Made by a program: the position numbers and the translations under genes. Shown here in pieces: positions 7,000 to 51,189 of a stretch of DNA of 64,000 nt. A model generated the notes under the pieces. The model was not told the DNA's origin. It did no database searches and saw only the letters and a program-made list of their open reading frames with translations. Source of the DNA: Macrostomum hystrix (lineage: Eukaryota > Animalia > Platyhelminthes); the NCBI GenBank assembly GCA_950097015.1, contig CATNEN010000003.1:14632001-14696000 (forward strand), given 5' to 3'. Every line of letters begins with the position of its first letter. Position 1 is the stretch's first letter.

Positions 7000-7665
7000 A
7001 CATCTCATCTCTTCCTTGTCTCATCTCTCCTGTATTGTCTCACCGCTGTCTCATCTCTCCTCTGTCTCACCGTTCCGCTGTCTCACCTCTCCCCTGTCTC
7101 ATCTCTCCGCTGTCTCATCTCTCCCCTGTCTCATCTCTCCCCTGTCTCATCTCTTCCCTGTCTCATCTCTCCCTGTCTAACCCCCCTGTCTCATCTATCC
7201 CCAGTCTCATCTCTCCGCTGTCTCATCTATCCTCTGTCTCATCTATCCCCAGTCTCATCTCTCCGCTGTCTCATCTATCCTCTGTCTCATCTCTCCGCTG
7301 TCTCATCTATCCTCTGTCTCATCTATCCCCAGTCTCATCTCTCCGCTGTCTCATCTATCCCCAGTCTCATCTCTCTGCTGTCTTATCTATCCTCTGTCTC
7401 ATCTATCCCCAGTCTCATCTCTCCGCTGTCTCATCTATCCGCTGTCTCATCTCTCCCCAGTCTCATCTCTCCGCTGTCTCATCTATCCGCTGTATCATCT
7501 CTCCCCTGTATTATCTCTCCCCTGTCTTATCTCTTCACTGTCTCATCTCTCCGTGTCTCATCTCCCCTGTCTCATCTCTCAATCTGTCTAATCTCTCCAG
7601 CTGTCTAATCTCTTTACCTGTCTAATCTGATCCTATGTCTTATCTCCCCTGTCTCGTCTCTCTAC
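7000..7665 (+). repeat. 16-bp minisatellite (CTGTCTCATCTCTCCC)n
   Basis: Tandem units; dispersed family with six arrays in the window. Confidence 0.95.
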
Positions 7666-14766: not shown

Positions 14767-15865
14767 TGTTGCAGCAATCTGATAGATGGACGGTTGAAAG
14801 CTGTCTGTCTGTCTTCTGCAATTCTATCTTTATACTGTTAAGCAGCCAAACGGCCTACACTGGCTATTGAATGCTGTGTGGAGCTAGTCCAGCCAATGAG
14901 ATCAGTTAGCGAATAGGAATTGGAGGCTAACTAAATAGGAAGCTAGCAGCCAACCCCAGCGGAGGTTGGGTGGCCGCGTTTTGAAGGGCCCTGCCTGTCA
15001 GTCAGTCAGTCCGTCAAGTCTTTCTTGGACAATTGAAGTGCCATATATAACCGAGCGAATAAGAAGGCCAATTCTTTTGAAATAAAAAATGAGGCTTTGC
15101 CACCGAAGTTTTGCGGGGCACGCGCGCTTGTGAGCTTGCTTCTATTGCTTGGGCCTGCATGAGTGTGGTGTGGTGTGTGTGGCCTTCAGTAATGTTTGTC
15201 TTTAATTTATATTTCAAACCAAAAGCAAACAGCCTATACCTTCACTAGTTAGTCAAAGCAAACAAAGACGCGGCCGGTGGGCCCCCCATATATGACCGAT
15301 ACAACCAAATCAATGCTAAGCCGCGTTTGCTTTGCTTTTACTTCCCGAAATTATATAACGAGAAAAATGAGAATAGAGTTAGTTGAGCACAGAGACATAG
15401 AGAGTCCTAGGAAAACAAAATAGCAGTTTAATCCGGAGATGAATTGTTGAGCACATATGCCGGGTTTGAGGTTGAGTTTCAGTTCTATGAACTCAATCAC
15501 TCCCTGTCTCTCTCTACTCTCTTCTGTATTTGCTCTTCTCTCACAGTCCTAGGGTCTGAAGTGACATGTGAGCACACAATCTTCATGCTCCAATTTCCCC
15601 AGAAAAATCTAGATCTACGCCAATGAATTCTGTACACTGCATGATATAGGAGGTCCCTCGTTTGCAAACAAAAAGGTCACAAATCTATTTTCGTTGCATA
15701 AAACTGTCATTTCTAGACAAGGTCAAAAACAAGTTCAATATGCATGCAATTAAACACCGTATTGTATTGTATGCACAATGGTTCGGTAACCTTTTATGAC
15801 AATAATTCATGGGCCAAAGATAGAATCTAAAACTACAGCAGTGCGACCGAGTAATGTGGTTAGGT

Positions 15866-16140
15866 CAGACAGGGGAGAGATGAGACAGGGGAGAGATGAG
15901 ACAGGGGAGAGATGAGACAGGGGAGAGATGAGACAGGGGAGAGATGAGACAGGGGAGAGATGAGACAGGGGAGAGATGAGACAGGGGAGAGAAGAGACAG
16001 GGGAGAGATCAGACAGTAGAGAGATGTGACGATATTAGAGAGATGAGACAGTAGAGAGATGAGACAGTAGAGAAATGAGACAGTAGAGAGATGAGACAGT
16101 AGAGAGATGAGACAGTAGAGAGATGAGAGAGTACAGAGAT
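15866..16140 (-). repeat. 16-bp minisatellite family, reverse orientation
   Basis: (GGGAGAGATGAGACAG)n. Confidence 0.95.
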
Positions 16141-17349
16141 TAAAATGTTATCTAATGAGACAAAGAGTCCCATTTTATTTTACAATTGTGTAACCTACAG
16201 GTTTTAACAATAGAAACTCCATCCATGCATGCAAATTGCAAACAGCTGATCATAGCTAAAGGCGAAGCCATAAAATTGCCACATAATTGCGCAATTTAAG
16301 CTTAGAACACCTCCAATTATGGAGGCCCTTCAAGCTCTAGGAAATTCGACCAAATGACGCCTATTATATAGATTTGTGCATTTGTAAGGGTTGAACTAAG
16401 TATTCAGAATGTGACAGAGTTATCGTTGCGTCATTGTTCGTATGTAATCTCAAAGCCAAAAAAAATTTTTCGACATCAAAAGCGAAACAATAGACTGTAT
16501 AAGACATCTTATACCGTCGAATAAATAAAAGATTTTAGTTTAAAATTAATACGATTACGTCAACATGTACACTTGACTTCGCTGCGACTGCTTAGTCATT
16601 GCGATGACCACACGATACAGGCCTTCTTCAAATGACTAAATACGAAATATATATAGCTAATATATGGAGCCCTGGGGCATAGTTTCAATGGCACGTTTTC
16701 TGTAAAAAGCAGACATGTCGGACAGACAGACAGACACACACATTGTTCCGATCCAAAACTTCCTCGTCAAAAGTCAACATCTTCTAGGAGGAAGAGGGGA
16801 AAAAAACTAAAAAGCATCCGAGGGAAGAGAGAGGAGGAGAAGAGATGGTTTGGGTGAGATTTTCTAGTTTAGTCTGCTGGCTGCAAGGCCATTGTGCTGC
16901 TTCTAAATGCAGTCCCTATATATACAAGCATATATGTGCCGCAGTTAAACCCGAAGAAAGGACACGTCAAGGACCTCGTGATAGCAACCCCCGCTACTGA
17001 TCTCCCACAGTGCCACAGACAGATGTGCATGTCGAACAATTTCTTTTTGGTTACATGGCCTGGTCGCTAGGAGGGGGTTGAAAGGCCAGAATAAAAAGAA
17101 AAAATGTTCAAAATTTCACAGAAGAATAATCGCTTGGAATCCTTGATGAAAACTGGGTGGCTGGTTTCCAATTATTATATAGTGGGCTAATCATTCAGTG
17201 CTTCGAATACCGTCTTCCGTATCTCGAATAGGGGTTGCAAAACTGCTGCCAGCGGCCCAGATACGGCTGAGCTAAAAAAACACGGCCATCCGGCACAATA
17301 CTAACATCTGCATGCTTGTGTCTTGGCTGCACCCTCGTATTTATATCAC

Positions 17350-17750
17350 CCCTGTCTCATCTCTCCCCTGTCTCATCTCTCCCCTGTCTCATCTCTCCCG
17401 TGTCTCATCTCTCCCCTGTCTCATCTCTCCCGAGTCTCATCTCTCCCCTGTCTCATCTCTCCCGTGTCTCATCTATCCCCTGTCTCATCTCTCCCCTTAC
17501 TTATCGCTCCCCTGTTTCATCTCTCCCGTGTCTCATCTCTGTCCTGTCTCATCTCTCCCCTGTCTCATCGCTACCCTGACTTATCTCTCCCATGTCTCAT
17601 CTCTCCCGTGTCTCATCTGTCCCGTGTCTCATCTCTCCTCTGTCTCATCTCTTCCCTGTCTCATCTATCCCCTGTCTCATCTCTCCCCTTACTTATCGCT
17701 CCCGTGTCCCATCTCTTCCATGTCTTATCTCTCCCCGTATCTCATCTCTA
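17350..17750 (+). repeat. 16-bp minisatellite family
   Basis: (CTGTCTCATCTCTCCC)n. Confidence 0.95.
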
Positions 17751-20104: not shown

Positions 20105-20460
20105 ATCTCTCTCCCCTATTTATCCAGTGTCTCATCTCTCATCTCTCACCTGTCTCATCTCTCCCTGTCTCATCTCTCACCTGTCTCATCACTACCCTGT
20201 CTCATCTCTCCCCAGTTTCATCTCTTCCCTGTCTCATCTCTCCCGTGTCTCTTCTCCTCCATGTCTCATCTCTCCCCCTGTCTCATCTCTCTCGTGTCTC
20301 ATCTCTCCCCAGTTTCATCTCTCCCGTGTCTCATCACTCCTCTGTCTCATCTCTCCCGGTCTCATCTCTCTTTGTCTCATCTCACCCCTGTCTTACCTCT
20401 CCCCTGTATAACCTCTCCCCAGTGTCATCTCTCTTCTTGTGTCTCTGTCTAATCTCTTTA
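20105..20460 (+). repeat. 16-bp minisatellite family, degenerate
   Basis: (CTGTCTCATCTCTCCC)n variants. Confidence 0.9.
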
Positions 20461-20973: not shown

Positions 20974-22175
20974 CTCATCTCTTCCTTGTCTCATCTCTCC
21001 CCTGTCTCATCTCTCCACTGTCTCATCTCTCCCCTGTCTCATCTCTCCCCTGTCTCATATCTTCCGTGTCTCATCTCTCCCCTGTCTCATATCTCCCCTG
21101 TCTCATCTCTCCCCTGTCTCATCTCTCCCCTGTCTCATCTCTCCCCTGTCTCATCTCTCCCCTGTCTCATCTCTTCTCTGTCTCATCTCTCCCCTGTCTC
21201 ATCTCTCCCCTGTCTTATATCTCCCCTGTCTCATCTCTCCCGGTCTCATCTCTCCCCTGTCTCATCTCCCCCCTGTCTCATCTCTCCCGGTCTCATCTCT
21301 CCCATGACTAATCTCTCCCATGTCTCATCTCTCCCCTGTCTCATCTCTCCCCTGTCTCATATCTCCCCTGTCTCATCTCTCCCCTGTCTCATCTTTTCTC
21401 TGTCTCATCTCTCCCCTGTCTCATCTCTCCCCTGTCTCATCTCTCCCCTGTCTCATCTCTTCTCTGTCTCATCTCTCCCCTGTCTCATCTCTCCCCTGTC
21501 TTATATCTTCCCTGTCTCATCTCTCCCATGACTAATCTCTCCCCTGTCTCATCTCTTCCCTGTCTCATCTCTCCCCTGTCTCATATCTCCCCTGTCTCAT
21601 CTCTCCCCTGTCTCATCTTTTCTCTGTCTCATCTCTCCCCTGTCTCATCTCTTCCCTGTCTCATCTCTCCCCTGTCTCATCTCTCCCCTGTCTCATCTCT
21701 TCTCTGTCTCATCTCTCCCCTGTCTCATCTCTCCCCTGTCTTATATCTTCCCTGTCTCATCTCTCCCATGACTAATCTCTCCCCTGTCTCATCTCTCCCG
21801 GTCTCATCTCTTCCCTGTCTCATCTCTTCCCTGTCTAATCTTTTCCCTGTCTCATCTCTCCCGTGTCTCATCTCTCCCGTGTCTCATCTCTCCCCTGTCT
21901 CATCTCTCCCCTGTCTCATCTCTCCCGGTCTCATCTCTCCCATGACTAATCTCCCCCCTGTCTCATCTCTCCCGGTCTCATCTCTCCCATGACTAATCTC
22001 TCCCCTGTCTCATCTCTCCCGGTCTCATCTCTCCCATGACTAATCTCCCCCCTGTCTCATCTCTCCCGGTCTCATCTCTCCCATGACTAATCTCCCCCCT
22101 GTCTCATCTCTCCTGGTCTCATCTCTCCCATGACTAATTTCCACCCTGTCTCATCTCTCCCGGTCTCATCTCTCT
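20974..22175 (+). repeat. 16-bp minisatellite family
   Basis: (CTGTCTCATCTCTCCC)n. Confidence 0.95.
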
Positions 22176-23299: not shown

Positions 23300-23390
23300 C
23301 GGCTAAAGCGTTTGTCTCTCGCACCGAGCTTCCCGAGTTCTGCTCTGGGGCGAGGCTAAATTCAGCTTTTTCTGTACATATCGGCTCATA
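23300..23390 (+). mobile_element. tRNA-derived SINE family 2 fragment
   Basis: GGCTAAAGCGTTTGTCTCTCGCACCGAG...GGGCGAGGCTAAATTCAG...TACATATCGG; homologous to 23536-23641 and 27164-27292. Confidence 0.7.
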
Positions 23391-23535
23391 GTACAATTCG
23401 CGATAATGCAATGCATTCCTCATGATACGAACAGCCAGTGGGGTACAGCCGCAGATAATATTTCGCTGGCTATTCCAAAGCCTGTGAACAACTTTTAGTC
23501 GATGGACTGGGGACTCAAGAACTATCCGTCAGGTA

Positions 23536-23641
23536 TCTAAGAAATCGTTATCTAAAACTTCTTGGGGGCTGTCTCTTGTACCGAGGTTTCCGAGTTCGAA
23601 TCCAGGGCGAGGCTAAATTCAACCTTTTCAATACATATCGG
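23536..23641 (+). mobile_element. tRNA-derived SINE family 2 fragment
   Basis: B box GAGTTCGAATCC followed by GGGCGAGGCTAAATTCAACCTTTTCAATACATATCGG. Confidence 0.7.
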
Positions 23642-25451
23642 GTAATGCAATTTAATTAAAAAAGAGGTAACTTAACGACCAAATCGAAATCGTTTTCATT
23701 TAAAGTAAGCTGTGTACAGCTGTTCAGTCCGTGGACTGTGGATTCGACAAGAACCTCTCCGACAGAAATCTACATCCGACAGGAATCCTTATAATATAAT
23801 CCAATAATATAATCCATTTCAGCATCTAGTTAATTGGTTAATAAATAGTTGAATTATAAGTTTACCATTTTGCTTGATAATCTTAAAATTTAGTACATCA
23901 AAAATGCATTTGCGTCACTATAAGTGACCTTTCAACAAAACTAATGCCTAAAACGCATTAGGGGGACATCTAAGCTTATGGGGCCAGATTTTGGTATAAA
24001 CAAATCGAAACACAGCGGATTCTAATATATATCATGCGGCAGATGGACAAGTGGTAAAGTGGGAGATCTAAAGACATGAACAATGGTACGCTAATATAAT
24101 TATATATTGTTTATCCGTCATTCATTCACTGAAGTCAGTTTGGCGACCCTAACTAGCTGACAATATTGAATTTCTTGATAAACCATTTACCTAATAATTT
24201 ACTGGTACAAGAATATATTAAGGCTTATATCTATCGCCAAACGGACACAAAAATCCTGCATAAACTGTTGGCTTTTAGTGATGGGATAAGAAAGGCTGGG
24301 CGAATAAACACAGATAATCATCTTCAATGTTGAGGTGGGCGGGTTCGATCCCTGGTAGAAAATATTTCAAGGGGCTGCATGGATTAAAACAAATCAAAGC
24401 CCATTGAACACGGGTTAGATGAATAGAGCCAAACATAGCCATTACCCCCTACTGGTCGGCCAAGTGCTGATAAAGCCAGGATAAACAACAACGCATCAAT
24501 AGACTTATACTAGATAGAAAAGGAAAGTAAAAAAATGGGACGCCTGAAACGCGCGCCTGTCTTATAACTGGTCACGATAACTGGTCACAACAATCTTTTC
24601 ATCTGTAATGATGATAATCAGCATCACGATTATAATATTCCTACAATAGGCTGCAGTTTTCTAATTAAAAGCAAACACACAGAGAAGTGTGTCTCCAGAC
24701 AGAACCGGGCAAGATGGTTCGTGATAGATAAGGGATGTCTGGTTTAACTTTCATTGGAGGTCCCAAAAATTCTTCAATAAGAGAAAAATAAACAGTTTTT
24801 TAATCATGTTTCTAGCGAATAATGCAAAGTAATATTGACATTGGTTATTTTTTTTGAAGAACACAGATTGCAAAAGACATTGATTTTAAAGATAAAAACA
24901 TTCTTTTATGCGGCGAATGACCAATATCGATGAGATTTCTAAGAAATTATAATTTCTATCATATGTTTCTAGGAAACACAGACACCAATCAACGCTAACT
25001 TAAAAAACCGGTTTCTAGGAAACATCCAACTGTCAAAACAATTTTCTCGGAAAACTAACTTAAAAATCGGTTTCTAGGAAACACCTGCTTGTTTTTCATT
25101 CAATCGGTTTCTAGAAATTACTTGAAACAGTCAAAGGTGACACAGATTAAACGCGAAGTAACACTGTTTTACTGAAAAAATAGATAAGACAAAGAAAAGA
25201 ACAAAGCCATAAATTTTCTTATTTCGATTTGTGAACAAACAAATTGATCAATCTGAGAATGATATCTGATTGATGCGTTTGTGAGCTAAAAACTGTGGCA
25301 AAATTGATAAAAGAGAACAAGAGCATATGATAGAGTGGTAGATATTTAACATTGAATAATTAATTCGAGTTTAACGCACAGAAATACTAGACGCCAGAAA
25401 AAAATGAGAATGAAGGAAACAGGGTGAAGGAGAGAAGTACGGTGGGAGATT

Positions 25452-27163: not shown

Positions 27164-27292
27164 TTCTAAGAAATCGTTATCTAATACTGCTTGGGGAGAC
27201 GAGTGGCAGTCTCTCGCACCGAGGTTCCCGAGCTCGAATCCGGGGCTCTGGGGCGAGGCTAGATTAAACTATTTCTATACATATCGGCTCAT
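27164..27292 (+). mobile_element. tRNA-derived SINE family 2 fragment
   Basis: TCTAAGAAATCGTTATCTAA...GTCTCTCGCACCGAGGTTCCCGAGCTCGAATCC...ATACATATCGGCTCAT; homologous to the two 23.3-23.6 kb copies. Confidence 0.7.
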
Positions 27293-28436
27293 GAAAAAAA
27301 TGACATCAGAGAAACTTATCTGGAATACGCTCGTTGTATTCATTAAATGAAATTTAAGCTCGTATGTTGCTTAAAAAATTATATATCTGCATGCGTATTT
27401 CTAGGAATCGATGTCACCTAGTTACAACTATTTCTACACATATAGGCTAACTAATAAAATAAGCGAAACTTCTATAAAAAACAAAAAATCTTTGCACATT
27501 GAGGAACCTAATCCTATTCTAAAGGACGAGCAAAATTATTTTCCTTTCTATAGGAATCGACCCGCATTTCGATTTTATGCTCGGCTTACCAACGATATTA
27601 AACAAAAAAGCTAAGATCGCTTCAACGAATGGGAGTGAAAAATATCCTAAAGTTTCCATTTTCTGTTCACATCGGCTAAACCGATAAAATATCGATAAAA
27701 GAGCGAAAGAAAATATTTGTTTGCGAAAGCAAAGTGTCCTCAATTTCTATAAATTTACATACTTTACTTTAGTTAAAACTCTTTCTGAACTTTTGGGTTA
27801 ATCAACAAAACTCAGCAAGAAAGTCGAAGGAAAAAAAGACAACTTCTTTCTACTTTTTTATCTTCTCTCGGGAGAACATAAATTAGATCAGACAGGCCAT
27901 CTTGAGATGCAGCCCTTACGCCTTTGGTACTCTTTTGTCAATCAATCAATCAAATTATCGGAGATATAGACGCAGATTCGAACTTACGTCGAAAAGAAGA
28001 AGACTAAATTTTTCAAGCACTCTTCAGCACGCCTGGAAAGTTCTGTTCCTAATTTAGTTCCGTGTCCTGGATCGCTGTTATGGCGTTGATAACTAACTAG
28101 ATTACTTACTGAGCCTAGCGTGTCTTCAAACGAACCTATCTGTTGCATCTAATTCAACACGGCTCATGAAAGTCTGCTTCTCGAGCATGCTCTCTCAATC
28201 GTAGAGTTTCGAAATTGTTCGTAAGAAAATTTGATTAGTCAACTCTTGCTAGCAATCCATAGTTGAATTAAAAGGCGGACAAGCTGAGAGGTAAGTTGAA
28301 ACGCATCTGTTTCTTGCTCAAGAAAATATACTCGTTAGACAAATAGAAAAAGAAATTTTAACTCAAAAATATTTATTTCCACACAAGTGTTGGGGGTTTT
28401 GATATTCGAAAAGGTTGGGAGATAAGCGTGGGAGAG

Positions 28437-29428: not shown

Positions 29429-29947
29429 AAGGGAAGGTGGGAGAGAAGGGAAGTGGGAGAGCGGGACATAAGAGACAGAGGCAGGTTGAGTTGAGATGTT
29501 TGAAAAAGCGAAAAAAACTATGAAAGAGGTAAGAAAAGTGGGCCGAATCGTACGGCGGGATATTTACTAGCGCGAAAACGGGAGGATCAGAGCAGAGGGA
29601 AACGGAAGCAGCCAAGTCATTGATTCGCATTGGGGATAAGATAGGAGGGCTGTTGGGAGGCAGAAATTCGACGGGACGAGAAAGGATGGGCAGCAAGTCA
29701 GATCTCGATAAGCCTCGGCTTTCCTAGAATCGTGACTCAACTCAAACTGCCACTAAACAGTAGAAACGGCTTAGCTGCCTTTACTCTTAGCTGTCTCAAT
29801 GACAGGGCTCACGTGACTTGTCTGTGAGTAAGCCCTTCGCTAGATGCGATTCAGTCAGTGAGAAGTGCTTGTGTCGAAATGCAAGTTTAATTAGTTCAAT
29901 TCACTAACTAAGGAAGCGATATAAGGCGTAGATGTGGTCAGGGAGAA

Positions 29948-30670
29948 CTGAGACAGGGGAGAGATGAGACAGGGGAGATATGAGACAGGGGAGAGATGAG
30001 ACAGGGGAGAGATGAGACAGGGGAGAGATGAGACAGGGGAGAGATGAGACAAGGTAGAGATGAGACAGGGGAGAGATGAGACAGGGGAGAGATGAGACAG
30101 GGGAGAGATGAGACAGGGGAGAGATGAGACAGGGGAGAGATGAGACAGGGGAGAGATTAGACAGGGGAGAGATGAGACAGGGGAGAGATGAGACAGGGGA
30201 GAGATGAGACAGGGGAGAGATGAGACAAGGTAGAGATGAGACAGGGGAGAGATGAGACAGGGGAGAGATGAGACAGGGGAGAGATGAGACAGGGGAGAGA
30301 TGAGACAGGGGAGAGATGAGACAGGGGAGAGATGAGACAGGGGAGAGATTAGACAGGGGAGAGATGAGACAGGGGAGAGATGAGACAGGGGAGAGATGAG
30401 ACACGGGAGAGATGAGACACGGGAGAGATGAGACAGAGGAGAGATGAGACAATAGAGAGATAAGACAGTATTAGAGAAATATGACAGAGGAGAGATGGGA
30501 CAGAGGAGAGATGGGACAGGGGAGAGATGAGACAGGGAAGAGATAAGACAGGGGAGATGAGACAGGGGAGAGATTAGAGGTGGGAGAGATGAGAGAGAGA
30601 GGAGAGATGAGACAGGGGAGAGATGAGATTAGACACGGCAGGGATCAGATGAGACAGTGGGGAAATGAGA
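29948..30670 (-). repeat. 16-bp minisatellite family, reverse orientation
   Basis: (GGGAGAGATGAGACAG)n. Confidence 0.95.
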
Positions 30671-32839: not shown

Positions 32840-33480
32840 TAGTTAGACGCAGCTAGTGTGAGTTCATCAAGAGGAAAAATAATGTTATGAAGCGAGACGC
32901 TGCCTACCGACCTGCGCGCTAACAAAGCATGCCGCGGCTTCTTTGTAAGATTGAGAACTGAGGAAAAAATGGGATAAAAGTAGCGGAATCTGTTGCAGCA
33001 GCCGCAGCATTGTGACACAATTAGATTTTTGTTGCAAAGCAGACAAACAGGAAACACACACACGCAGACAAGCAGACATTAGGGAAATACAATGAAAGCA
33101 CAATGTTTAGGCAGACAATTTTAATAATTTTACCTTCCCTACTCACTGAGCTATAACGAAAAAAAGAAGAACGGATCTGATGAAGACTGACAAAGAGGTC
33201 TGAGTATAAAAGGACTTGAAATCTATTGAAATTTCTACTCCTAATTCTGCTTTTTTCTAATATAAAATATTCCGACTCTACCTGTCCGTCTGTCTGTCTC
33301 ACAAATATAAAGCAGTCTCACACCAACCCCAGTGACTCATTCAATTCTTCGCGACGGAGTAAATTACAAATTATAAAAAATGCTTAATATACCTTAGGTA
33401 GATTAACTTGAATTTGAAACTAGTACTTTCAGTGACTCTAAAAATTCCGATTCAAAGCATAACTTCTGCAATTTCTGCAT

Positions 33481-35213
33481 CCCTCATCTCTGCAATCACT
33501 CTCCCTCATCTCTCCAATCACTCTCCCTCATCTCTCCGATCACTCTCCCTCATCTCTCCAATCACTCTCCCTCATCTCTCCAATCACTCTCCCTCATCTC
33601 TCCAATCACTCTCCCTCATCTCTCCAATCACTCTCCCTCATCTCTCCAATCACTCTCCGTCATCTCTCCAATCACTCTCCCTCATCTCTCCAATCACTCT
33701 CCCTCATCTCTCCAATCACTCTCCCTCATCTCTCCAATCACTCTCCCTCATCTCTCCAATCACTCTCCCTCATCTCTCCAATCATTCTCCCTCATCTCTC
33801 CGATCATTCCCCCTCATCTCTCCAATCACTCTCCCTCATCTCTCCAATCATTCTCCCTCATCTCTCCGATCATTCCCCCTCATCTCTCCGATCACTCTCC
33901 CTCATCTCTCCAATCACTCTCCGTCATCTCTCCGATCATTCCCCCTCATCTTTCCAATCACTCTCCCTCATCTCTCCGATCACTCTCCCTCATCTCTCCA
34001 ATCACTCTCCCTCATCTCTCCAATCACTCTCCCTCATCTCTCCAATCACTCTCCCTCATCTCTCCAATCACTCTCCCTCATCTCTCCAATCACTCTCCCT
34101 CATCTCTCCAATCACTCTCCCTCATCTCTCCAATCACTCTCCCTCATCTCTCCAATCACTCTCCCTCATCTCTCCAATCACTCTCCCTCATCTCTCCAAT
34201 CACTCTCCCTCATCTCTCCAATCACTCTCCCTCATCTCTCCGATCATTCCCCCTCATCTCTCCGATCACTCTCCCTCATCTCTCCAATCACTCTCCCTCA
34301 TCTCTCCAATCATTCTCCCTCATCTCTCCGATCATTCCCCCTTATCTCTCCGATCACTCTCCCTCATCTCTCCAATCACTCTCCGTCATCTCTCCGATCA
34401 TTCCCCCTCATCTTTCCAATCACTCTCCCTCATCTCTCCGATCATTCCCCCTCATCTCTCCGATCACTCTCCCTCATCTCTCCAATCACTCTCCCTCATC
34501 TCTCCAATCATTCTCCCTCATCTCTCCGATCATTCCCCCTTATCTCTCCGATCACTCTCCCTCATCTCTCCAATCACTCTCCGTCATCTCTCCGATCATT
34601 CCCCCTCATCTTTCCAATCACTCTCCCTCATCTCTCCAATCACTCTCCCTCATCTCTCCGATCATTCCCCCTCATCTCTCCGATCACTCTCCCTCATCTC
34701 TCCAATCACTCTCCCTCATCTCTCCAATCACTCTCCCTCATCTCTCCAATCACTCTCCCTCATCTCTCCAATCACTCTCCCTCATCTCTCCAATCACTCT
34801 CCCTCATCTCTCCAATCACTCTCCGTCATCTCTCCGATCATTCCCCCTCATCTTTCCAATCACTCTCCCTCATCTCTCCGATCATTCCCCCTCATCTCTC
34901 CGATCACTCTCCCTCATCTCTCCAATCACTCTCCCTCATCTCTCCAATCACTCTCCCTCATCTATCCAATCACTCTCCCTCATCTCTCCAATCACTCTCC
35001 CTCATCTCTCCAATCACTCTCCGTCATCTCTCCAATCACTCTCCCTCATCTCTCCGATCATTCCCCCTCATCTCTCCAATCACTCTCCCTCATCTCTCCA
35101 ATCACTCTCCGTCATCTCTCCGATCATTCCCCCTCATCTCTCCGATCATTCCCCCTCATCTCTCCGATCACTCTCCCTCATCTCTCTCCAATCACTCTCC
35201 CTCATTTTCTCCC
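33481..35213. repeat. 22-bp minisatellite (CCCTCATCTCTCCAATCACTCT)n
   Basis: Tandem units; shares the CTCATCTCTCC core with the 16-bp family. Confidence 0.95.
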
Positions 35214-35767: not shown

Positions 35768-36216
35768 AGGATTTCCAGGTTACGGGATTGGGGATTTCCA
35801 GGTTACGGGATTGGGGATTTCCAGGTTACGGGATTGGGGATTTCCAGGTTACGGGATTGAGGATTTCCAGGTTACGGGATTGGGGATTTCCAGGTTACGG
35901 GATTGGGGATTTCCAGGATACGGGATTGGGGATTTCCAGGATACGGGATCGGGGATTTCCAGGTTACGGGATTGGGGATTTTCAGGTTACGGGATTGGGG
36001 ATTTCCAGGTTACGGGTTTAGGGATTTCCAGGATACGGGATTGGGGATTTCCAGGTTACGGGATTGGGGATTTTCAGGTTACGGGATTGGGGATTTCTTG
36101 GTTACGGGATTGGGGATTTCCAGGTTACGGGATTGAGGCTTTCCAGGTTACGGGATTGGGGATTTCCAGGTTACGGGATTGGGATTTCCAGGTTACGGGA
36201 TTGGGGATTTCCAAGT
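35768..36216. repeat. 23-bp minisatellite (GGGGATTTCCAGGTTACGGGATT)n
   Basis: Tandem units read directly. Confidence 0.95.
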
Positions 36217-36418
36217 TCTGAATTGGTTTAAAGATTTAAGAGGGATATCCAGATTTCAAATATTCTAAACAGAATCAGAGCGTTGTTTAATCTTTTCGAT
36301 ACATATAGGCCAACTTAAGTTTTTCGATACATATCGTCAGTTTTATAAAAACTGTGTCGCAAAGGTTTATTCAAAGCACTAAAAGAGTACATTAAATGGC
36401 CTCAGCCATCCAGTGAAA

Positions 36419-36972
36419 CTATCTGAGAGTCAGACCGGGCACAAATTTCTGCAGCATAATTCTCAGCCGTGATTGCACACTGTGAGCAGTGAGCGAGTCC
36501 AATGCTGCCCAACGATTCACATAGACTAGACGATAACAGAGACCAATAGAATCTGCCTGCTGATTATAGACGTCAATTAATTGCACCGAAGCTACACTTA
36601 AGTCTGACAAAGCCAGAGCAAAGCCAACAATTTGCCGATTCAGTTTAATCAGATTATCATTCGTTGTAAAATCTTGATTTCTAATCCAAAAGCTAACATC
36701 GTGACAGTGTCGCAATGGCCAAGGAGGCGATGGTATCTGTCCATTGTCTGGCATTGGATTGGTCGGTAGCAGCAGCAGCAGCAGAGACAGTGGCGGAATC
36801 AGAACAGCTCTAGTCTTGATTGAATTGTCCAATTTTATAAGGGCAGTTTCAGCGCCTAACAAAGTTGGGTTATCAATAGGACCGCATAGCAACAGCCAGG
36901 CGATTCGTATTTGGTTGCCATGACAGCTAGGCAGAGGAAGTGTCAGTCCGCCGGCGTCAAAAATTTGTTGAG
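36419..36972 (-). CDS. FDXACB1: FDXACB1 exon 6 (ferredoxin-fold anticodon-binding domain, stop)
   Basis: ACAG| acceptor, phase 1; HDVSFW...VQLIDVY...LCYRLVY...LTLR* is an FDX-ACB domain; AATAAA at 36371-36366. Confidence 0.9.
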
Positions 36973-37933: not shown

Positions 37934-38820
37934 CTGTGTTCTAATATTCAGATTCTGTTCTACTATCTATAGATTGTGTTATAATATCTAGATTGTGTTC
38001 TAATATCTAGATTGTGTCCTAGTATCTAGATTGTGTTATAATATCTAGATTGTGTTCTAATATCTAGATTGTGTCCTAGAATCTAGATTGTGTTCTAATA
38101 TCTAGATTGTGTTCTAATATCTAGATTGTGCTCTAATATCTAGATTGTGTCCTAGTATCTAGATTGTGTTCTAATATCTAGATTGTGTCCTAGTATCTAG
38201 ATTGTGTTCTAGTATCTAGATTGTGTTCTAATATCTAGATTGTGTCCTAGTATCTAGATTGTGTTCTAGTATCTAGATTGTGTTCTAGTATCTATAGATT
38301 GTGTTCTAATATATAGATTGTGTCCTAGTATCTAGATTGTGTTCTAATATCTAGATTGTGCTCTAATATCTAGATTGTGTCCTAGTATCTAGATTGTGTT
38401 CTAATATCTAGATTGTGTCCTAGTATCTAGATTGTGTTCTAGTATCTAGATTGTGTTCTAATATCTAGATTGTGTCCTAGTATCTAGATTGTGTTCTAGT
38501 ATCTAGATTGTGTTCTAGTATCTATAGATTGTGTTCTAATATCTAGATTGTGTCCTAGTATCTAGATTGTGTTCTAATATCTAGATTGTGTTCTAATATC
38601 TAGATTGTGTCCTAGTATCTAGATTGTGTTCTAATATCTAGATTGTGTCCTAGTATCTAGATTGTGTTCTAGTATCTAGATTGTGTTCTAGTATCTATAG
38701 ATTGTGTTCTAATATCTAGATTGTGTCCTAGTATCTAGATTGTGTCCTAGTATCTAGATTGTGTTCTAATATCTAGATTGTGTCCTAGCATCTATAGACT
38801 GTGTTCTAATATCTAGATTA
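37934..38820. repeat. 19-bp minisatellite (ATATCTAGATTGTGTTCTA)n
   Basis: In FDXACB1 intron 5. Confidence 0.95.
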
Positions 38821-38857: not shown

Positions 38858-39346
38858 CCTCTGGTCCAACAATTAGTCGAAGATTTGGCCATCGAATTTT
38901 AGCTATTGACTCAATTTCAGATCTGTTCAGACCATCGAGAAGACGTTTGCACAGTGACTTGCAAATATTATCGACATCTTTAAGCATCGAAACATTGCCA
39001 TCAGTGTTGGGAAATGCTACAACAGTCTGCCAGTACCAAACCGTATCGCTAGCGTCAACAACAAGTTCAAGCCTATCCTTCTGTTGATCAGCCGAGGTTA
39101 CCGACGATGATAACATCAATTGATTGCAACTAACAACGCAGTAGGCCCTACTGGACATTGTTTGACATTCTAGAAGCTCCTTAACAAGAATTGACTGAGG
39201 TCGGTGAGTGTAAGCAACTGGCAAAACTGATGGCTCATTGGTGCAATGAGACCACAGAGGATGGCCAGGAGTGCAGGTTGCTGATCGGTCAGGAGCTAGC
39301 AAGCTTGCAGACAGTTGATTAATTGAGTCACCAATGCTCGGTCGAT
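38858..39346 (-). CDS. FDXACB1: FDXACB1 exon 5
   Basis: CCCTTAG| ... G|GTAGGT, 489 nt, phase 1-1, open frame linking exons 4 and 6; sequence itself divergent. Confidence 0.75.
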
Positions 39347-39458: not shown

Positions 39459-42180
39459 GTTCGGCTAAATGATTCTCTGTTCGGTTTAATGATTCTCTGT
39501 TCGGTTTGAAGATGCTCTGTTCGGTTTGATGATGCTCTGTTCGGTTTGATGATGCTCTGTTCGGTTTGAAGATTCCCTGTTCGGTTTGATGATGCTCTGT
39601 TCGGTTTGAAGATTCCCTGTTCGGTTTGAAGATTCCCTGTTCGGTTTGATGATGCTCTGTTCGGTTTGAAGATTCCCTGTTCGGTTTGATGATGCTCTGT
39701 TCGGTTTGAAGATTCCCTGTTCGGTTTGAAGATTCCCTGTTCGGTTTGATGATGCTCTGTTCGGTTTGAAGATTCCCTGTTCGGTTTGAAGATTCCCTGT
39801 TCGGTTTGATGATGCTCTGTTCGGTTTGATGATGCTCTGTTCGGTTTGATGATGCTCTGTTCGGTTTGAAGATGCTCTGTTCGGTTTGATGATGCTCTGT
39901 TCGGTTTGATGATGCTCTGTTCGGTTTGATGATGCTCTGTTCGGTTTGATGATGCTCTGTTCGGTTTGATGATGCTCTGTTCGGTTTGATGATGCTCTGT
40001 TCGGTTTGATGATGCTCTGTTCGGTTTGATGATGCTCTGTTCGGTTTGAAGATGCTCTGTTCGGTTTAAAGGTTTGAAGGTTTGAAGGTTTGAAGATTTC
40101 CTGTTCGGTTTGAAGATTCCCTGTTCGGTTTGAAGATTCCCTGTTCGGTTTGAAGATTCCCTGTTCGGTTTGAAGATTCCCTGTTCGGTTTGAAGATTCC
40201 CTGTTCGGTTTGAAGATTCCCTGTTCGGTTTGAAGATTCCCTGTTCGGTTTGAAGATTCCCTGTTCGGTTTGAAGATTCCCTGTTCGGTTTGAAGATTCC
40301 CTGTTCGGTTTGAAGATTCCCTGTTCGGTTTGAAGATTCCCTGTTCGGTTTGAAGATTCCCTGTTCGGTTTGATGATGCTCTGTTCGGTTTGAAGATTCC
40401 CTGTTCGGTTTGATGATGCTCTGTTCGGTTTGAAGATTCCCTGTTCGGTTTGATGATGCTCTGTTCGGTTTGAAGATTCCCTGTTCGGTTTGATGATGCT
40501 CTGTTCGGTTTGATGATGCTCTGTTCGGTTTGATGATGCTCTGTTCGGTTTGAAGATGCTCTGTTCGGTTTGAAGATTCCCTGTTCGGTTTGATGATTCC
40601 CTGTTCGGTTTGAAGATTCCCTGTTCGGTTTGAAGATTCCCTGTTCGGTTTGAAGATTCCCTGTTCGGTTTGATGATGCTCTGTTCGGTTTGAAGATTCC
40701 CTGTTCGGTTTGATGATGCTCTGTTCGGTTTGAAGATGCTCTGTTCGGTTTGATGATGCTCTGTTCGGTTTGATGATGCTCTGTTCGGTTTGAAGATGCT
40801 CTGTTCGGTTTGATGATGCTCTGTTCGGTTTGAAGATTCCCTGTTCGGTTTGAAGATTCCCTGTTCGGTTTGAAGATTCCCTGTTCGGTTTGAAGATTCC
40901 CTGTTCGGTTTGAAGATTCCCTGTTCGGTTTGAAGATTCCCTGTTCGGTTTGATGATGCTCTGTTCGGTTTGAAGATTCCCTGTTCGGTTTGATGATGCT
41001 CTGTTCGGTTTGAAGATTCCCTGTTCGGTTTGAAGATTCCCTGTTCGGTTTGATGATGCTCTGTTCGGTTTGAAGATTCCCTGTTCGGTTTGATGATGCT
41101 CTGTTCGGTTTGAAGATTCCCTGTTCGGTTTGATGATGCTCTGTTCGGTTTGATGATGCTCTGTTCGGTTTGATGATGCTCTGTTCGGTTTGAAGATGCT
41201 CTGTTCGGTTTGAAGATTCCCTGTTCGGTTTGATGATTCCCTGTTCGGTTTGAAGATTCCCTGTTCGGTTTGAAGATTCCCTGTTCGGTTTGAAGATTCC
41301 CTGTTCGGTTTGATGATGCTCTGTTCGGTTTGAAGATTCCCTGTTCGGTTTGATGATGCTCTGTTCGGTTTGAAGATGCTCTGTTCGGTTTGATGATGCT
41401 CTGTTCGGTTTGAAGATTCCCTGTTCGGTTTGAAGATTCCCTGTTCGGTTTGAAGATTCCCTGTTCGGTTTGAAGATTCCCTGTTCGGTTTGAAGATTCC
41501 CTGTTCGGTTTGAAGATTCCCTGTTCGGTTTGATGATGCTCTGTTCGGTTTGAAGATTCCCTGTTCGGTTTGATGATGCTCTGTTCGGTTTGAAGATTCC
41601 CTGTTCGGTTTGAAGATTCCCTGTTCGGTTTGATGATGCTCTGTTCGGTTTGAAGATTCCCTGTTCGGTTTGATGATGCTCTGTTCGGTTTGAAGATTCC
41701 CTGTTCGGTTTGATGATGCTCTGTTCGGTTTGAAGATTCCCTGTTCGGTTTGAAGATTCCCTGTTCGGTTTGAAGATGCTCTGTTCGGTTTGATGATGCT
41801 CTGTTCGGTTTGATGATGCTCTGTTCGGTTTGATGATGCTCTGTTCGGTTTGATGATGCTCTGTTCGGTTTGATGATGCTCTGTTCGGTTTGATGATGCT
41901 CTGTTCGGTTTGATGATGCTCTGTTCGGTTTGAAGATGCTCTGTTCGGTTTGATGATGCTCTGTTCGGTTTGATGATGCTCTGTTCGGTTTGAAGATGCT
42001 CTGTTCGGTTTGAAGATTCCCTGTTCGGTTTGAAGATGCTCTGTTCGGTTTGATGATGCTCTGTTCGGTTTGAAGATGCTCTGTTCGGTTTGAAGATTCC
42101 CTGTTCGGTTTGATGATGCTCTGTTCGGTTTGAAGATTCCCTGTTCGGTTTGATGATGCTCTGTTCGGTTTGAAGATTTC
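39459..42180 (+). repeat. 20-bp satellite array A (CTGTTCGGTTTGAWGATKCY)n
   Basis: Fills nearly all of FDXACB1 intron 4. Confidence 0.97.
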
Positions 42181-42230
42181 CCCTAAAGATTGAAAGTATA
42201 TTTATTTTGAGCTGATTGGGCCGAACTCAC

Positions 42231-42487
42231 CCTGCATTATAAGATTTATCGCGGCTCGAAGCTCTCTGTCGGGAAGGTCAGTAGGTGTCAAAGCGGCATG
42301 AAGGGCTCGCGCAATCCAGGCTTCAGTTTGGAGTTGAGTTGCTTCATCAATCTGTACAGTCTCCAGCCAACCTCGATTGCCATCAATGCTCTCCGGAAGC
42401 TCCGTTGGCAGGTGCAGAATTTTCTTCGGACGAACCAGAATGTGACAAATACCAATCTCTTTGCCGTGAAAGCTGCGACATTGGCTT
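42231..42487 (-). CDS. FDXACB1: FDXACB1 exon 4
   Basis: TTACAG| ... G|GTGAGT, 257 nt, phase 2 to 1; begins RSQCRSFHGKEIGICHIL, matching RSQDKSFHVEGALNHIF (frame not shown in the ORF track). Confidence 0.88.
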
Positions 42488-42555
42488 CTGTAATAATTGA
42501 TCGAACAGGTTCTACTGCGTGTGAATTAGGGATTTTTAGTGAAAAGTTTCTGTAT

Positions 42556-44066
42556 AACAAGGAATCCTCAAACCGAGCAGAGAATATTCAAACCGAACAG
42601 AGCATCATCAAACCGAACAGAGCATCATCAAACCGAACAGAGCATCATCAAACCGAACACAGCATCATCAAACCGAACAGAGCATCATCAAACCGAACAG
42701 AGCATCATCAAACCGAACAGAGCATCATCAAACCGAACAGAGCATCATCAAACCGAACAGAGCATCATCAAACCGAACAGAGCATCATCAAACCGAACAG
42801 AGCATCATCAAACCGAACAGAGCATCATCAAACCGAACAGAGCATCATCAAACCGAACAGGGAATCTTCAAACCGAACAGGGAATCCTCAAACCGAACAA
42901 GGAATCCTCAAACCGAACAAGGAATCCTCAAACCGAACAGAGCATCATCAAACCGAACAAGGAATCCTCAAACCGAACAGAGCATCATCAAACCGAACAA
43001 GGAATCCTCAAACCGAACAGAGCATCATCAAACCGAACAAGGAATCCTCAAACCGAACAGAGCATCATCAAACCGAACAAGGAATCCTCAAACCGAACAG
43101 AGCATCTTCAAACCGAGCAGAGCATCATCAAACCGAGCAGAGCATCCTCAAACCGAACAGGGCATCATCAAACCGAACAGAGCATCATCAAACCGAACAA
43201 GGAATCCTCAAACCGAACAGAGCATCTTCAAACCGAACAGAGCATCATCAAACCGAACAGAGCATCTTCAAACCGAACAGAGCATCATCAAACCGAGCAG
43301 AGCATCCTCAAACCGAACAGAGAATCTTCAAACCGAACAGAGCATCATCAAACCGAACAGAGAATCTTCAAACCGAACAGAGCATCTTCAAACCGAACAG
43401 AGAATCTTCAAACCGAACAGAGCATCATCAAACCGAACAGAGCATCCTCAAACCGAACAGAGCATCATCAAACCGAACAGAGCATCATCAAACCGAACAG
43501 AGCATCATCAAACCGAACAGAGCATCATCAAACCGAACAGAGCATCATCAAACCGAACAGAGCATCATCAAACCGAACACAGCATCATCAAACCGAACAG
43601 GGAATATTCAAACCGAACAGAGCATCATCAAACCGAACAGAGAATCATCAAACCGAACAGGGCATCATCAAACCGAACAGAGCATCATCAAACCGAACAG
43701 AGCATCATCAAACCGAACAGAGCATCATCAAACCGAACAGGGCATCATCAAACCGAACAGAGCATCATCAAACCGAACAGGGAATATTCAAACCGAACAG
43801 AGCATCATCAAACCGAACAGAGCATCATCAAACCGAACAGAGCATCATCAAACCGAACAGAGCATCATCAAACCGAACAGAGCATCTTCAAACCGAACAG
43901 GGAATATTCAAACCGAACAGAGCATCATCAAACCGAACAGGGAATATTCAAACCGAACAGAGAATCATCAAACCGAACAGAGAATCATCAAACCGAACAG
44001 GGCATCATCAAACCGAACAGAGCATCATCAAACCGAACAGAGCATCATCAAACCGAACAGGGCATC
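42556..44066 (-). repeat. 20-bp satellite array B, inverted relative to A
   Basis: (AGCATCATCAAACCGAACAG)n is the exact reverse complement of the A unit; fills intron 3. Confidence 0.97.
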
Positions 44067-44222
44067 GTGATACCGAAATAAGTAGTGCAAATGTGGTGAC
44101 ATCATTGCAAGTTACAATAGTTTTATCAGACAAAAAGGATCAATTTAGCTGAGCAACATTGTTAATCAGAATGTTTAACAGTTAAGGTTCTACAAAAACC
44201 AATATATATATTTTTTTCTTAC

Positions 44223-44642: not shown

Positions 44643-45128
44643 TCTAGATTGATAGATTTGGAAGGATTCTAGATTGATAGATTTAGAAGGATTCTAGATT
44701 GATAGATTTGGAAGGATACTAGATTGATGGATTTGGAAGGATACTAGATTGATGGATTTGGAAGGATTCTAGATTGATAGATTTAGAAGGATTCTAGATT
44801 GATAGATTTGGAAGGATACTAGATTGATAGATTTGTAAGGATTCTAGATTGATAGACTTGAAAGGATTTCTAGATTGATAGATTTGTAAGGATTCTAGAT
44901 TGATAGATTTGTAAGGATTCTAGATTGATAGATTTGTAAGGATTCTAGATTGATAGATTTGGAAGGATACTAGATTGATAGATTTGTAAGGATTCTAGAT
45001 TGATAGATTTGTAAGGATTCTAGATTGATAGATTTGGAAGGATACTAGATTGATAGATTTGTAAGGATTCTAGATTGATAGACTTGAAAGGATTTCTAGA
45101 TTGATAGATATCGGAAGGATTTTAGATT
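44643..45128. repeat. 25-bp minisatellite (TCTAGATTGATAGATTTGGAAGGAT)n
   Basis: Fills FDXACB1 intron 2. Confidence 0.95.
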
Positions 45129-45175: not shown

Positions 45176-45271
45176 CTTTCTGACCTCTTAAAATCTCGTG
45201 GTTTGATTCTCTGAGGCGATCGAGCAGATTGTCAAGTTTCGTTGCGTCCACTTCAAATAGACAATGTCCTC
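45176..45271 (-). CDS. FDXACB1: FDXACB1 exon 2
   Basis: TTTTTAG| ... G|GTAATT, 96 nt, phase 1-1; GHCLFEVDATKL matches the FxVDxTxL motif. Confidence 0.88.
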
Positions 45272-45363
45272 CTAAAAATATCACGAAACACATTAGATGT
45301 GGAGTCGCAGATGTTACCTAAAAATTATACTATAAGAACAAAAAACGACACTAAAAAACGCGC

Positions 45364-45604
45364 CTAATAGTTCAATTTGTTGAACGTTATCTACAAAGCC
45401 GGAATATTTATTTCGACACAAGCTCTCGGGTTCGAATCCGGTGCACAGAATCAACCCATCCGCCGCGGTTGGCAAGGCGTCAACGTCGCGTAGTCGTTTT
45501 AAGAATCCGGCCGAGAAACTAAAATCCCCATCGCCTAGGATCAGAACAGTGCGAGGTCGATCTTCAACTGGACCGAACGGCCAGTGGATTGCTAGACCAT
45601 CCAT
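45364..45604 (-). CDS. FDXACB1: FDXACB1 coding exon 1 (ends at a probable GC donor)
   Basis: MDGL...VLILGDGDFSFS (LLVGEGNFSF motif)...NVQQIELLG; the only phase-compatible donor is AG|GCGCGT; joined CDS 1953 nt, 650 aa. Confidence 0.85.
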
Positions 45605-45725
45605 TGTAGGGATAGCGCCGATAGACTTTTCACACTGCAACCAAGGAGACGGAAAAACTAAGGCAAAACAGCATCTTTATCTTTTAAATCTTTTAACGAT
45701 AACAGAGCATCATTAACACATTAAA

Positions 45726-46533
45726 ACATCAAACCGAACAGAGCATCATCAAACCGAACAGAGCATCATCAAACCGAACAGGGCATCATCAAACCGAACA
45801 GAGCATCTTCAAACCGAACAGAGCATCATCAAACCGAACACAGCATCATCAAACCAATCAGAGCATCATCAAACCGAACAGAGCATCTTCAAACCGAACA
45901 GAGCATCATCAAACCGAACAGAGAATCATCAAACCGAACAGAGCATCATCAAACCGAACAGAGCATCTTCAAACCGAACAGAGCATCATCTAAACCGAAC
46001 AGAGCATCTTCAAACCGAACAGAGCATCATCAAACCGAACAGAGCATCTTCAAACCGAACAGAGCATCTTCAAACCGAACAGAGCATCATCAAACCGAAC
46101 AGAGAATCATCAAACCGAACAGAGCATCATCAAACCGAACAGAGAATCATCAAACCGAACAGAGAATCATCAAACCGAACAGAGCATCTTCAAACCGAAC
46201 AGAGCATCTTCAAACCGAACAGAGAATCATCAAACCGAACAGAGAATCATCAAACCGAACAGAGCATCATCAAACCGAACAGAGCATCTTCAAACCGAAC
46301 AGAGCATCATCAAACCGAACAGAGCATCATCAAACCGAACAGAGCATCTTCAAACCGAACAGAGCATCATCAAACCGAACAGAGCATCATCAAACCGAAC
46401 AGAGCATCATCAAACCGAACAGAGCATCTTCAAACCGAACAGAGCATCTTCAAACCGAACAGAGCATCATCAAACCGAACAGAGCATCATCAAACCGAAC
46501 AGAGCATCATCAAACCGAACAGAGCATCATCAA
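45726..46533 (-). repeat. 20-bp satellite array C (same orientation as B)
   Basis: (AGCATCATCAAACCGAACAG)n upstream of FDXACB1 coding exon 1. Confidence 0.97.
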
Positions 46534-47259
46534 ATACAACAGATTGAAGCCAATGAGTTCGCTACCGAAAGTGTCCCAATTTTTACGTAAAAGATGAAAT
46601 GGGGACAAAGCAGCTATCCAATTAGAAAATGCCACCGACATTGCATCCCTCGGCGTCAATTCTTATCTCAGCTAGTTGTGTGTGAGATTTCTCAGAATTC
46701 CTAGAACAGCATTCATGGCCGGCGCTAGATAACATAGGAGGAGGAATTGAGCGCCACGGGTTACGCAACAGCTGTCAAGGGGAGGAATGACGCTAAGGAG
46801 GGGCCAAAGATTTCTTTGGGAGATATGAAAACTTTTATCCCACAACGTAGGCTGTTGGGTAAGTAAGAATTGCGCAAGCTACTATAGCGTACATTATCTG
46901 GCAGAAAAACTGGCTATAACTCGCCCTCATCACCACAAGGGATTAAGGTCGGCTTAAGTCTTGGCAGCCACATCTAGTATAGAAATAAGCATATAGCTTG
47001 GACTTGACGTAGTATAATAAAAGATTCTAATCTGCTGGCTGGATCATTCCGTGTGGCTATCAGTCACTGTCTTATTATCATTCTCAACCATATAAGCCAA
47101 ACAATGATAATGCTTCTGTCACACGCCACAAAGGTTATTAGCCATTATTTCTTACTTTGGCAATTAACTATTTAAAAAAGCAACCGGGATAGAACTATAC
47201 AATAATTTTTAGAGGTCTGGGGTTCGAGTCCCACGAGTACTGGCCTCGTGACCTTGGCA

Positions 47260-47467
47260 CAGCACAGTCGCAGCTATTGCGTGGCGTACAGCTGTTCAGT
47301 CCATGGACTGTGTGGGGATGCCACACCCGCACTCAATTACCCCAACTAATTCTGGTACAGTGGTACAGGTGTTCCGCTAAAGGACACAGATTGTTCCAGT
47401 ATAGTCAAGAATCGAACCCCGGACCTTTAAGTCATGAAACCGACGCTCAAACTACAGACTACAACCC
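47260..47467 (-). mobile_element. Internally deleted copy of the CORE-like SINE
   Basis: Collinear with 2420-2670 (CGTACAGCTGTTCAGTCCA, GCCACACCC, CTAAAGGACACA..TTGTTCCAGT, AATCGAACCCC). Confidence 0.8.
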
Positions 47468-50985: not shown

Positions 50986-51189
50986 ATGAACAATGGGCAT
51001 GCACTTTTCGATCTGGAGCTTGGCGATCAGCATGGCGCATCAGAAATTTCAGAGGGAATCACTTCTATGGGACTAACATCTAATAGGCCTAGTCGTGCTC
51101 AAGGAGCTTTACTTTCAAAAGATGACAATAGTGACAATGAGGAGGATATTAGCTATGATGATGCAAATGGAAAGTTGCAGAAGACAGAA
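50986..51189 (+). CDS. RPS6KB1: p70 S6 kinase exon 1
   Basis: TOS motif FDLEL near the N-terminus; donor GAA|GTAAGT, phase 0. Confidence 0.88.

What the first reader, a model, noticed from the sequence alone, without database searches (positions are those of the whole stretch)
39459..44066. Kilobase inverted satellite arrays clamp FDXACB1 exon 4
Seen: intron 4 is almost entirely a 2.7-kb array of a 20-mer, and intron 3 is a 1.5-kb array of its exact reverse complement. They stop ~50 nt from the donor and ~70 nt from the acceptor, leaving a ~375-nt loop holding the 257-nt exon. Array B has variants (GGAATCCTC, GGAATATTC) that I did not see in A, which argues against a simple assembly mirror artefact. 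Established: complementary flanking introns promote back-splicing, exon skipping and ADAR editing. Inference: the pre-mRNA forms a ~1.5-kb duplex in many registers, giving a 257-nt circRNA or a frameshifting skip, so a satellite would be playing the role inverted Alus play in mammals.
Basis: partly seen in the sequence, partly recalled or inferred. Interest (0 to 1): 0.8.

Follow-up and report, generated by a model that had tools for sequence, protein, structure and literature searches.

The report
Facing minisatellites around a flatworm exon
Two long blocks of the same 20-base repeat face each other across one exon of a flatworm gene, likely a chance by-product of repeats spreading locally in both directions; the normally spliced message is the only form seen in assembled transcripts, and any circular RNA would likely be minor.

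Summary
Arrays A (39471-42177) and B (42564-44077) are the same 20-mer in opposite orientation, 386 nt apart, around the 257-nt exon 4 of an FDXACB1-like gene in a Macrostomum flatworm. They could pair at about 90% over 1.5 kb. The reading that they are a special clamp is weakly supported. Tandem arrays fill 37% of the window, same-family arrays cluster locally (p = 5e-5), and 7 of 11 same-family neighbours are inverted (p = 0.55 against 50:50). Unrelated arrays stop just as close to splice sites, and A and B are not kept matched to each other. Spliced contigs join exon 3 to exon 4 in 6 of 6 runs laid and exon 4 to exon 5 in 3 of 3. No skip or back-splice joint appeared, but depth is low and contigs drop rare forms. 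Most likely this is neutral local spread of a minisatellite, perhaps with a minor circRNA by-product. The scan noted a similar case in another genome (e1-9982173).

The parts
39471..42177 (+). Array A, 20-mer minisatellite, about 135 copies, fills intron 4; two dominant variants (61 and 55 of 133 units); holds a 393-nt block present three times
42564..44077 (-). Array B, same family, inverted to A, about 76 copies, fills intron 3; 14 unit variants
45727..46534 (-).
42231..42487 (-). Exon 4 of the FDXACB1-like gene, 257 nt, coding; included in spliced contigs; 49% identical to the M. lignano orthologue over 67 aa
44223..44538 (-). Exon 3 (BMT5-like domain), both ends seen in spliced contigs
38858..39346 (-). 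Exon 5; its start is seen joined to exon 4, its end is predicted from splice motif and frame
45176..45271 (-). Exon 2; its end is seen joined to exon 3
45364..45657 (-). Exon 1 (ATG at 45604); GC donor and 5' end inferred from reading frame and contig lengths, not read directly
36419..36972 (-). Exon 6, coding part to the stop; weak FDX-ACB domain
44643..45128 (.). Unrelated 25-mer array in intron 2, 47 nt from its donor and 104 nt from its acceptor (control for spacing)
37935..38819 (.). Unrelated 19-mer array in intron 5, 38 nt from its donor (control for spacing)

Best explanation
Three arrays of one 20-base minisatellite sit in and just upstream of this gene, two of them facing each other across exon 4, likely because the family was copied over short distances in either orientation and then expanded; exon 4 is included in the spliced transcripts seen, and a duplex between the introns would likely yield at most a minor circular or skipped by-product. 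Shown: the arrays and their orientation, local clustering of repeat families, both orientations being common, and exon inclusion. Inferred: a few units were seeded in small neighbouring introns by local copying (template switching, ectopic repair or circle re-insertion). Each array then grew and homogenised on its own by slippage or unequal exchange. Growth was tolerated only outside the 40-145 nt that carry splice signals, which explains the apparent clamp. Intron 3 is probably committed to splicing before much of array A is transcribed (about 310 nt later), or the duplex is unwound.
For: 31 arrays cover 23,875 of 64,000 bases. 16 of 31 belong to five multi-copy families whose members cluster (mean spacing 3.1 kb against 14.6 kb in 20,000 label permutations, p = 5e-5). 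7 of 11 successive same-family pairs are inverted (binomial p = 0.55 two-sided). The other six inverted pairs do not bracket an internal coding exon that I could find. A nearby inverted duplication of unique DNA (58847-59137 against 60813-61113, z = 47; core 144 nt at 87.5%) lies beside an inverted copy of the 49-mer array, which points to a local inverting mechanism. Unrelated arrays lie 38 and 47 nt from donors and 104 nt from an acceptor. B resembles the non-complementary C (unit-frequency overlap 0.59) at least as much as its partner A (0.48), and A's commonest unit (61 of 133) occurs once in 74 B units and not in C. Exon 3-4 junction in 6 of 6 spliced runs laid, exon 4-5 junction in 3 of 3, from 5 samples and 2 studies. 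Exon 4 is conserved coding sequence in M. lignano. Simple and tandem repeats make up 15% of the M. lignano genome (PMC5730564, passages).
Against: The contigs are shallow (depth 2.6-15.6), library type is not on record, and contigs drop rare variants, so abundant circles in non-polyadenylated RNA would be invisible. In C. elegans, much shorter complementary matches drive circRNA and skipping while the linear mRNA persists (PMC8330042, passages), so inclusion does not exclude a circle. A/B is the longest same-family inverted pair in the window and the only one found bracketing an internal exon. The 7 of 11 count is small, its pairs are not independent, and it leans towards inverted. A, B and C share no flanking homology (six comparisons, z from -1.2 to 0.6), so the copying route for this family is not shown. 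No whole genome was available for a wider control.
Confidence: 0.72

Rival explanations
1. The origin is neutral, but the duplex does form often. Exon 4 then yields a readily detectable 257-nt circRNA, skipped nonsense transcripts or heavy intronic A-to-I editing, as unselected by-products.
For: Predicted duplex is long and stable, and 186 of 200 proximal B nucleotides pair with A in a local fold. Arms lie within 53-76 nt of the splice sites. Repeats of 30-40 nt can suffice (PMC4201285, passages). Planarian ADAR2 edits mRNA (PMC8797187, passages).
Against: Contigs run unbroken through both junctions in X2, X3 and X6, with no back-splice joint in 3 of 3 and no exon 3-5 loose end in 3 of 3 runs covering the donor; this is a weak hint only. 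Hairpin stability did not predict circularisation, and G-U wobbles could inhibit it; about 3% of A-B pairs are G-U.
Confidence: 0.17
2. The pair is a selected regulatory switch that tunes FDXACB1 through unproductive skipping or makes a functional circRNA, with satellites in the role of inverted Alus.
For: The geometry is ideal, and skipping gives a premature stop well upstream of the last junction (stop at nt 669, last junction at nt 1142 of the skipped model).
Against: No co-maintenance of the arms. A third copy lies in the non-pairing orientation to B. Inverted neighbours are common here. Only the included form was assembled. Conservation in other species could not be tested.
Confidence: 0.06
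3. Assembly artefact: a fold-back chimera or mis-oriented repeat block.
For: No long reads could be laid over the arrays. Array lengths in repeat-rich assemblies are uncertain. The one DNA run laid may be the source of the assembly.
Against: The variant order and content differ between arms, the loop is not a palindrome, and the arms differ in length. All four array ends fade into unique sequence through degenerate units of the matching orientation. Exon order and strand agree with spliced contigs.
Confidence: 0.03
4. A and B are the tandem-repeat arms of one Foldback-type transposon that enclose a captured loop.
For: Foldback-type elements have long inverted arms built of short tandem units (recalled, not from a call).
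Against: The loop is the gene's own exon in its proper place. The outer flanks share no inverted terminus (z = -0.3). The arms differ in length and variants, and a third lone array exists.
Confidence: 0.02

Closest known systems
Exons flanked by reverse complementary matches (human inverted Alus at ZKSCAN1, HIPK3, EPHB4, PMC4201285; C. elegans RCM loci such as zip-2, PMC8330042)
   Same: Complementary sequence in both introns next to an internal exon, close to its splice sites, predicted to pair in the pre-mRNA.
   Different: Here the arms are tandem 20-mers that can pair in many registers, not dispersed elements. No circle or skip was observed, and no deletion or conservation test exists.
Euchromatic satellite arrays spreading through gene-rich DNA (Drosophila Rsp-like and 1.688, PMC7403614; Tribolium Cast satellites, PMC11610590)
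   Same: Discrete arrays of one family seeded at new euchromatic sites, then lengthened and homogenised; proposed routes there are ectopic conversion, microhomology repair, eccDNA and transposons.
   Different: The unit here is a 20-nt minisatellite, spread appears to be over a few kb, and many families share one window. The passages read do not address orientation or introns (0 hits for 'inverted' or 'intron' in either paper).
Tandem-repeat-rich Macrostomum genomes (PMC5730564; PMC10468722)
   Same: Simple and tandem repeats are 15% of the M. lignano assembly; this window is 37% arrays.
   Different: The passages read give no family-level, intron-level or orientation analysis; PMC10468722 says a full account of the repeat content is outside its scope.

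Membership tests
RCM-driven exonic circRNA locus | Reverse-complementary sequence in both flanking introns | tested here: met
   About 90% complementary over 1514 nt
RCM-driven exonic circRNA locus | Internal exon with canonical AG and GT sites used by the spliceosome | tested here: met
   Spliced contigs end at 42231 and 42487/42489
RCM-driven exonic circRNA locus | Back-splice junction detected | tested here: inconclusive
   0 of 3 spliced runs show a joint, but depth is 5.8-15.6, library type is unknown and contigs drop rare forms
RCM-driven exonic circRNA locus | Correlated exon skipping | tested here: inconclusive
   0 of 3 runs covering the exon 3 donor join to exon 5; same limits
RCM-driven exonic circRNA locus | RNase R resistance and loss of the circle when one arm is deleted | not testable with these tools
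   Needs bench work
ADAR or siRNA substrate | A-to-G changes or 20-24 nt RNAs on the repeat | not testable with these tools
Locally dispersed minisatellite family | Several separate arrays of one unit, each with its own variants | tested here: met
   A, B, C; 2-4 shared variants per pair
Locally dispersed minisatellite family | Orientation of neighbouring arrays not biased | tested here: inconclusive
   7 of 11 inverted, p = 0.55; small, non-independent sample
Foldback-type transposon | Shared inverted outer termini beyond the tandem arms | tested here: not met
   Outer flank comparison z = -0.3
Foldback-type transposon | Target-site duplication and dispersed copies with the same ends | not tested
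   No genome held; none obvious by eye
FDXACB1 orthologues | N-terminal BMT5-like (PF10354) domain | tested here: met
   E 1.1e-6 and 1.7e-12 on exons 1 and 3, above cut-off
FDXACB1 orthologues | C-terminal FDX-ACB (PF03147) domain | tested here: inconclusive
   E 0.066, below cut-off; best relative is a M. lignano protein named FDX-ACB domain-containing, E 5e-42; another hit has FDX-ACB above cut-off

The most novel reading that the evidence does not exclude
In Macrostomum, locally spreading minisatellite families are the main source of long intronic double-stranded RNA. Inverted same-family arrays in neighbouring introns mark a genome-wide class of exons with raised circRNA, skipping or ADAR editing, the role inverted Alus play in primates, and this exon is a clear example.
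Probability: 0.2. Interest if true: 0.55.

Novelty: new member of a known kind. Interest (0 to 1): 0.22.

Why it matters
If neutral, the locus is ordinary for this genome. It still shows that an exon can be spliced in with a potential 1.5-kb duplex around it, which makes it a handy natural test of whether complementarity alone is enough for back-splicing. M. lignano, a related species, has RNAi and transgenesis. If the bolder reading holds, tandem repeats would join dispersed elements as a genome-scale source of circRNA and editing substrates. I found no paper on circRNA, editing or intronic minisatellite orientation in Macrostomum in the listings.

Tried and rejected
No whole genome is held, so the genome-wide orientation test could not be run; I used the window instead. 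Run search: no RNA holder listed by record; the spliced nature of six runs came from laying them. X6's contig stops 29 letters into exon 3, which could mark a skip branch; one search showed no X6 piece over most of exon 3, so I read it as a coverage hole and draw nothing from it. A 30-base two-unit pattern found 0 matches in metagenome contigs. Flank homology among A, B and C: none in 6 of 6 comparisons. ESM Atlas could not read the new sequence. The solved-structure search of exon 6 gave only chance hits, best E 0.4. Pfam found nothing for exons 4 and 5. The exon 3 homologue search gave 2 unnamed proteins. The 2015 M. lignano genome paper is not held. PMC7716556 and PMC4604429 (passages) had nothing on tandem arrays in introns. 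Before counting, the 56 TRF rows were collapsed to 31 arrays by dropping overlapping alternative periods and short rows under about 100 bases. Supplementary repeat tables of PMC5730564 and PMC10468722 were not read and may hold family-level data.

Full report
Observation. Tandem Repeats Finder places a 20-mer array at 39471-42177 (135.1 copies, A) and one at 42564-44077 (75.7 copies, B). They share 98% of 12-mers in inverted orientation and none in direct orientation. The gap is 386 nt. Split into units, A is mostly two variants (61 and 55 of 133 units), while B has 14 variants among 74 units; three are shared. The variant order is not mirrored, and all four ends fade into unique DNA through degenerate units of the right orientation. 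A fold-back artefact is therefore unlikely, though no independent long read could be laid.

Organism and gene. An S6-kinase exon in the window is 92% identical to a Macrostomum lignano protein, well above the other listed matches, so this is most likely a Macrostomum flatworm. The gene lies on the minus strand with six coding exons that give a 650-codon frame. Exons 1 and 3 hit the BMT5-like domain above cut-off. The last exon hits FDX-ACB weakly (E 0.066). Its best relative among 5 hits is M. lignano PAA83883.1, named FDX-ACB domain-containing, which aligns to exons 3-6, with 49% identity over 67 residues at exon 4. The FDXACB1 label is reasonable.

Transcripts. Eight runs hold the exon-4 region; none is recorded as RNA. 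I laid seven of them. X1 covers intron and exon alike in one 463-letter contig and may be the source DNA. X2, X3 and X6 cover only 42231-42489, with exon 5 letters on one side and exon 3 letters on the other. On exon 3, X4, X7 and X8 continue into exon 4, and X4, X6 and X7 continue upstream into exon 2. So the 3-4 junction is seen in 6 of 6 spliced runs and the 4-5 junction in 3 of 3 where it was read; contig lengths imply it in X4 and X7 too. No joint going backwards in exon 4 (0 of 3) and no exon 3-5 end (0 of 3 covering the donor) appeared. These are contigs of depth 2.6-15.6 from five samples and two studies. They show that inclusion happens; they cannot show that rare or non-polyadenylated forms are absent.

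Can the duplex form? On paper, yes. There are 41 full-length registers above 80% Watson-Crick pairing, the best at 92% (95% with G-U), and the longest perfect run is 179 nt. A 300 x 300 nt duplex is predicted at -522 kcal/mol, against -57 and -29 for either arm folded alone, and 186 of 200 proximal B bases pair with A in a local fold. Skipping would stop translation 16 nt into exon 5, far upstream of the last junction.

Is it special? Thirty-one arrays cover 37% of the window (56 TRF rows collapsed, overlapping and short rows dropped). Sixteen of them fall in five multi-copy families. Family members lie much closer together than permuted labels allow (3.1 against 14.6 kb, p = 5e-5), and 7 of 11 successive same-family pairs are inverted (p = 0.55; pairs are few and not independent). 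The other six inverted pairs bracket intergenic DNA, a whole frizzled gene, a last exon or nothing, as far as my ORF and homology maps show; I did not check them with RNA. Short spacing from splice sites is general: unrelated arrays end 38 and 47 nt from donors and 104 nt from an acceptor. B is at least as like C, with which it cannot pair, as like A (overlap 0.59 against 0.48), and A's commonest unit is nearly absent from B, so nothing suggests the arms are kept matched. Against this reading, A/B is the longest inverted pair and the only one found around an internal exon.

How such pairs arise. At the end of the S6-kinase gene, 58847-59137 is repeated in inverted form at 60813-61113 (z = 47, core 87.5% identical). 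The 49-mer array that precedes the original is matched by an inverted 49-mer array beside the copy (61182-61446). This points to short-range inverted copying that can carry arrays in this window. For A, B and C no flank homology remains (6 of 6 comparisons at chance level), so the route for this family is inferred, not shown. Within A, a 393-nt block is present three times, at steps of 640 and 580 nt, which indicates recent internal expansion.

Known systems. Complementary flanking introns promote back-splicing and skipping in C. elegans, and deleting one arm removes the circle (PMC8330042, passages). In human minigenes 30-40 nt can suffice, but stability does not predict the outcome and wobbles can inhibit it (PMC4201285, passages). 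Satellite arrays spread through gene-rich euchromatin in Drosophila and Tribolium (PMC7403614, passages and section 8; PMC11610590, passages). Simple and tandem repeats are 15% of the M. lignano assembly (PMC5730564, passages); repeat content of three Macrostomum assemblies is 23-32% and not yet analysed in detail (PMC10468722, passages). Planarian ADAR2 edits mRNA (PMC8797187, passages). About 30% of M. lignano genes are trans-spliced (PMC8629364, passages). The locus meets the anatomical features of an RCM-flanked exon; the defining product is undetected and not excluded.

Verdict. The feature is real and most likely a neutral result of local minisatellite spread (0.72). A sizeable unselected by-product is possible (0.17); a selected switch is unlikely (0.06); artefact or transposon are remote (0.05 together). 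It is a new member of a known kind, interest 0.22. The bolder reading, minisatellites as the Alu-like source of intronic duplexes across this genus, remains open at about 0.2.

Noticed in passing
window 58847-59137 and 60813-61113, with arrays 57662-58791, 60299-60811, 61182-61446, 61451-61875, 61908-62014: Inverted duplication of the end of the last intron and start of the last exon of the S6-kinase gene, next to an inverted 49-mer array that abuts a direct one (4-nt gap), all nested between inverted 23/15-mer arrays. It looks like a template-switch or fold-back product.
   Followed up: partly
window 45657 (minus strand): Contigs of X2 and X3 both extend exactly 704 letters upstream of 42489. 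By arithmetic that ends at the first base after an AG acceptor at 45658, if exon 1 uses the GC donor at 45364. This may be a trans-splice or 5'-UTR acceptor, which would put array C in an outron or 5' intron. Letters were not read.
   Followed up: partly
window 45272-45363 (minus strand): Intron 1 of the FDXACB1-like gene appears to begin with GC rather than GT; inferred from frame and contig length. A GT 12 nt further on would also keep the frame.
   Followed up: partly
window 7003-7662, 15867-16128, 17349-17749, 20137-20433, 20974-22174, 29941-30628: Six arrays of one 16-mer family in both orientations around and upstream of the frizzled gene; the 22-mer array at 33480-35205 shares some words with them.
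   Followed up: partly
window 12745-14823 (minus strand): Single open frame of about 690 aa for a frizzled receptor (Fz and Frizzled domains), GC-rich relative to its surroundings.
   Followed up: no
window 50986-59316 (plus strand): S6-kinase gene matching M. lignano P0007; three of its introns carry their own arrays (31-, 30- and 49-mer).
   Followed up: partly
window 36184-36217: By length, the X3 contig runs through the 3' UTR to about 36184, inside the 23-mer array at 35769-36217, so the UTR may extend into a tandem array.
   Followed up: no
window 2460-2671 / 47284-47466; 53195-53315 / 54848-54983; 23313-23650 / 27165-27296: Short dispersed repeats at 71-82% identity, possibly SINE- or MITE-like fragments.
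   Followed up: no
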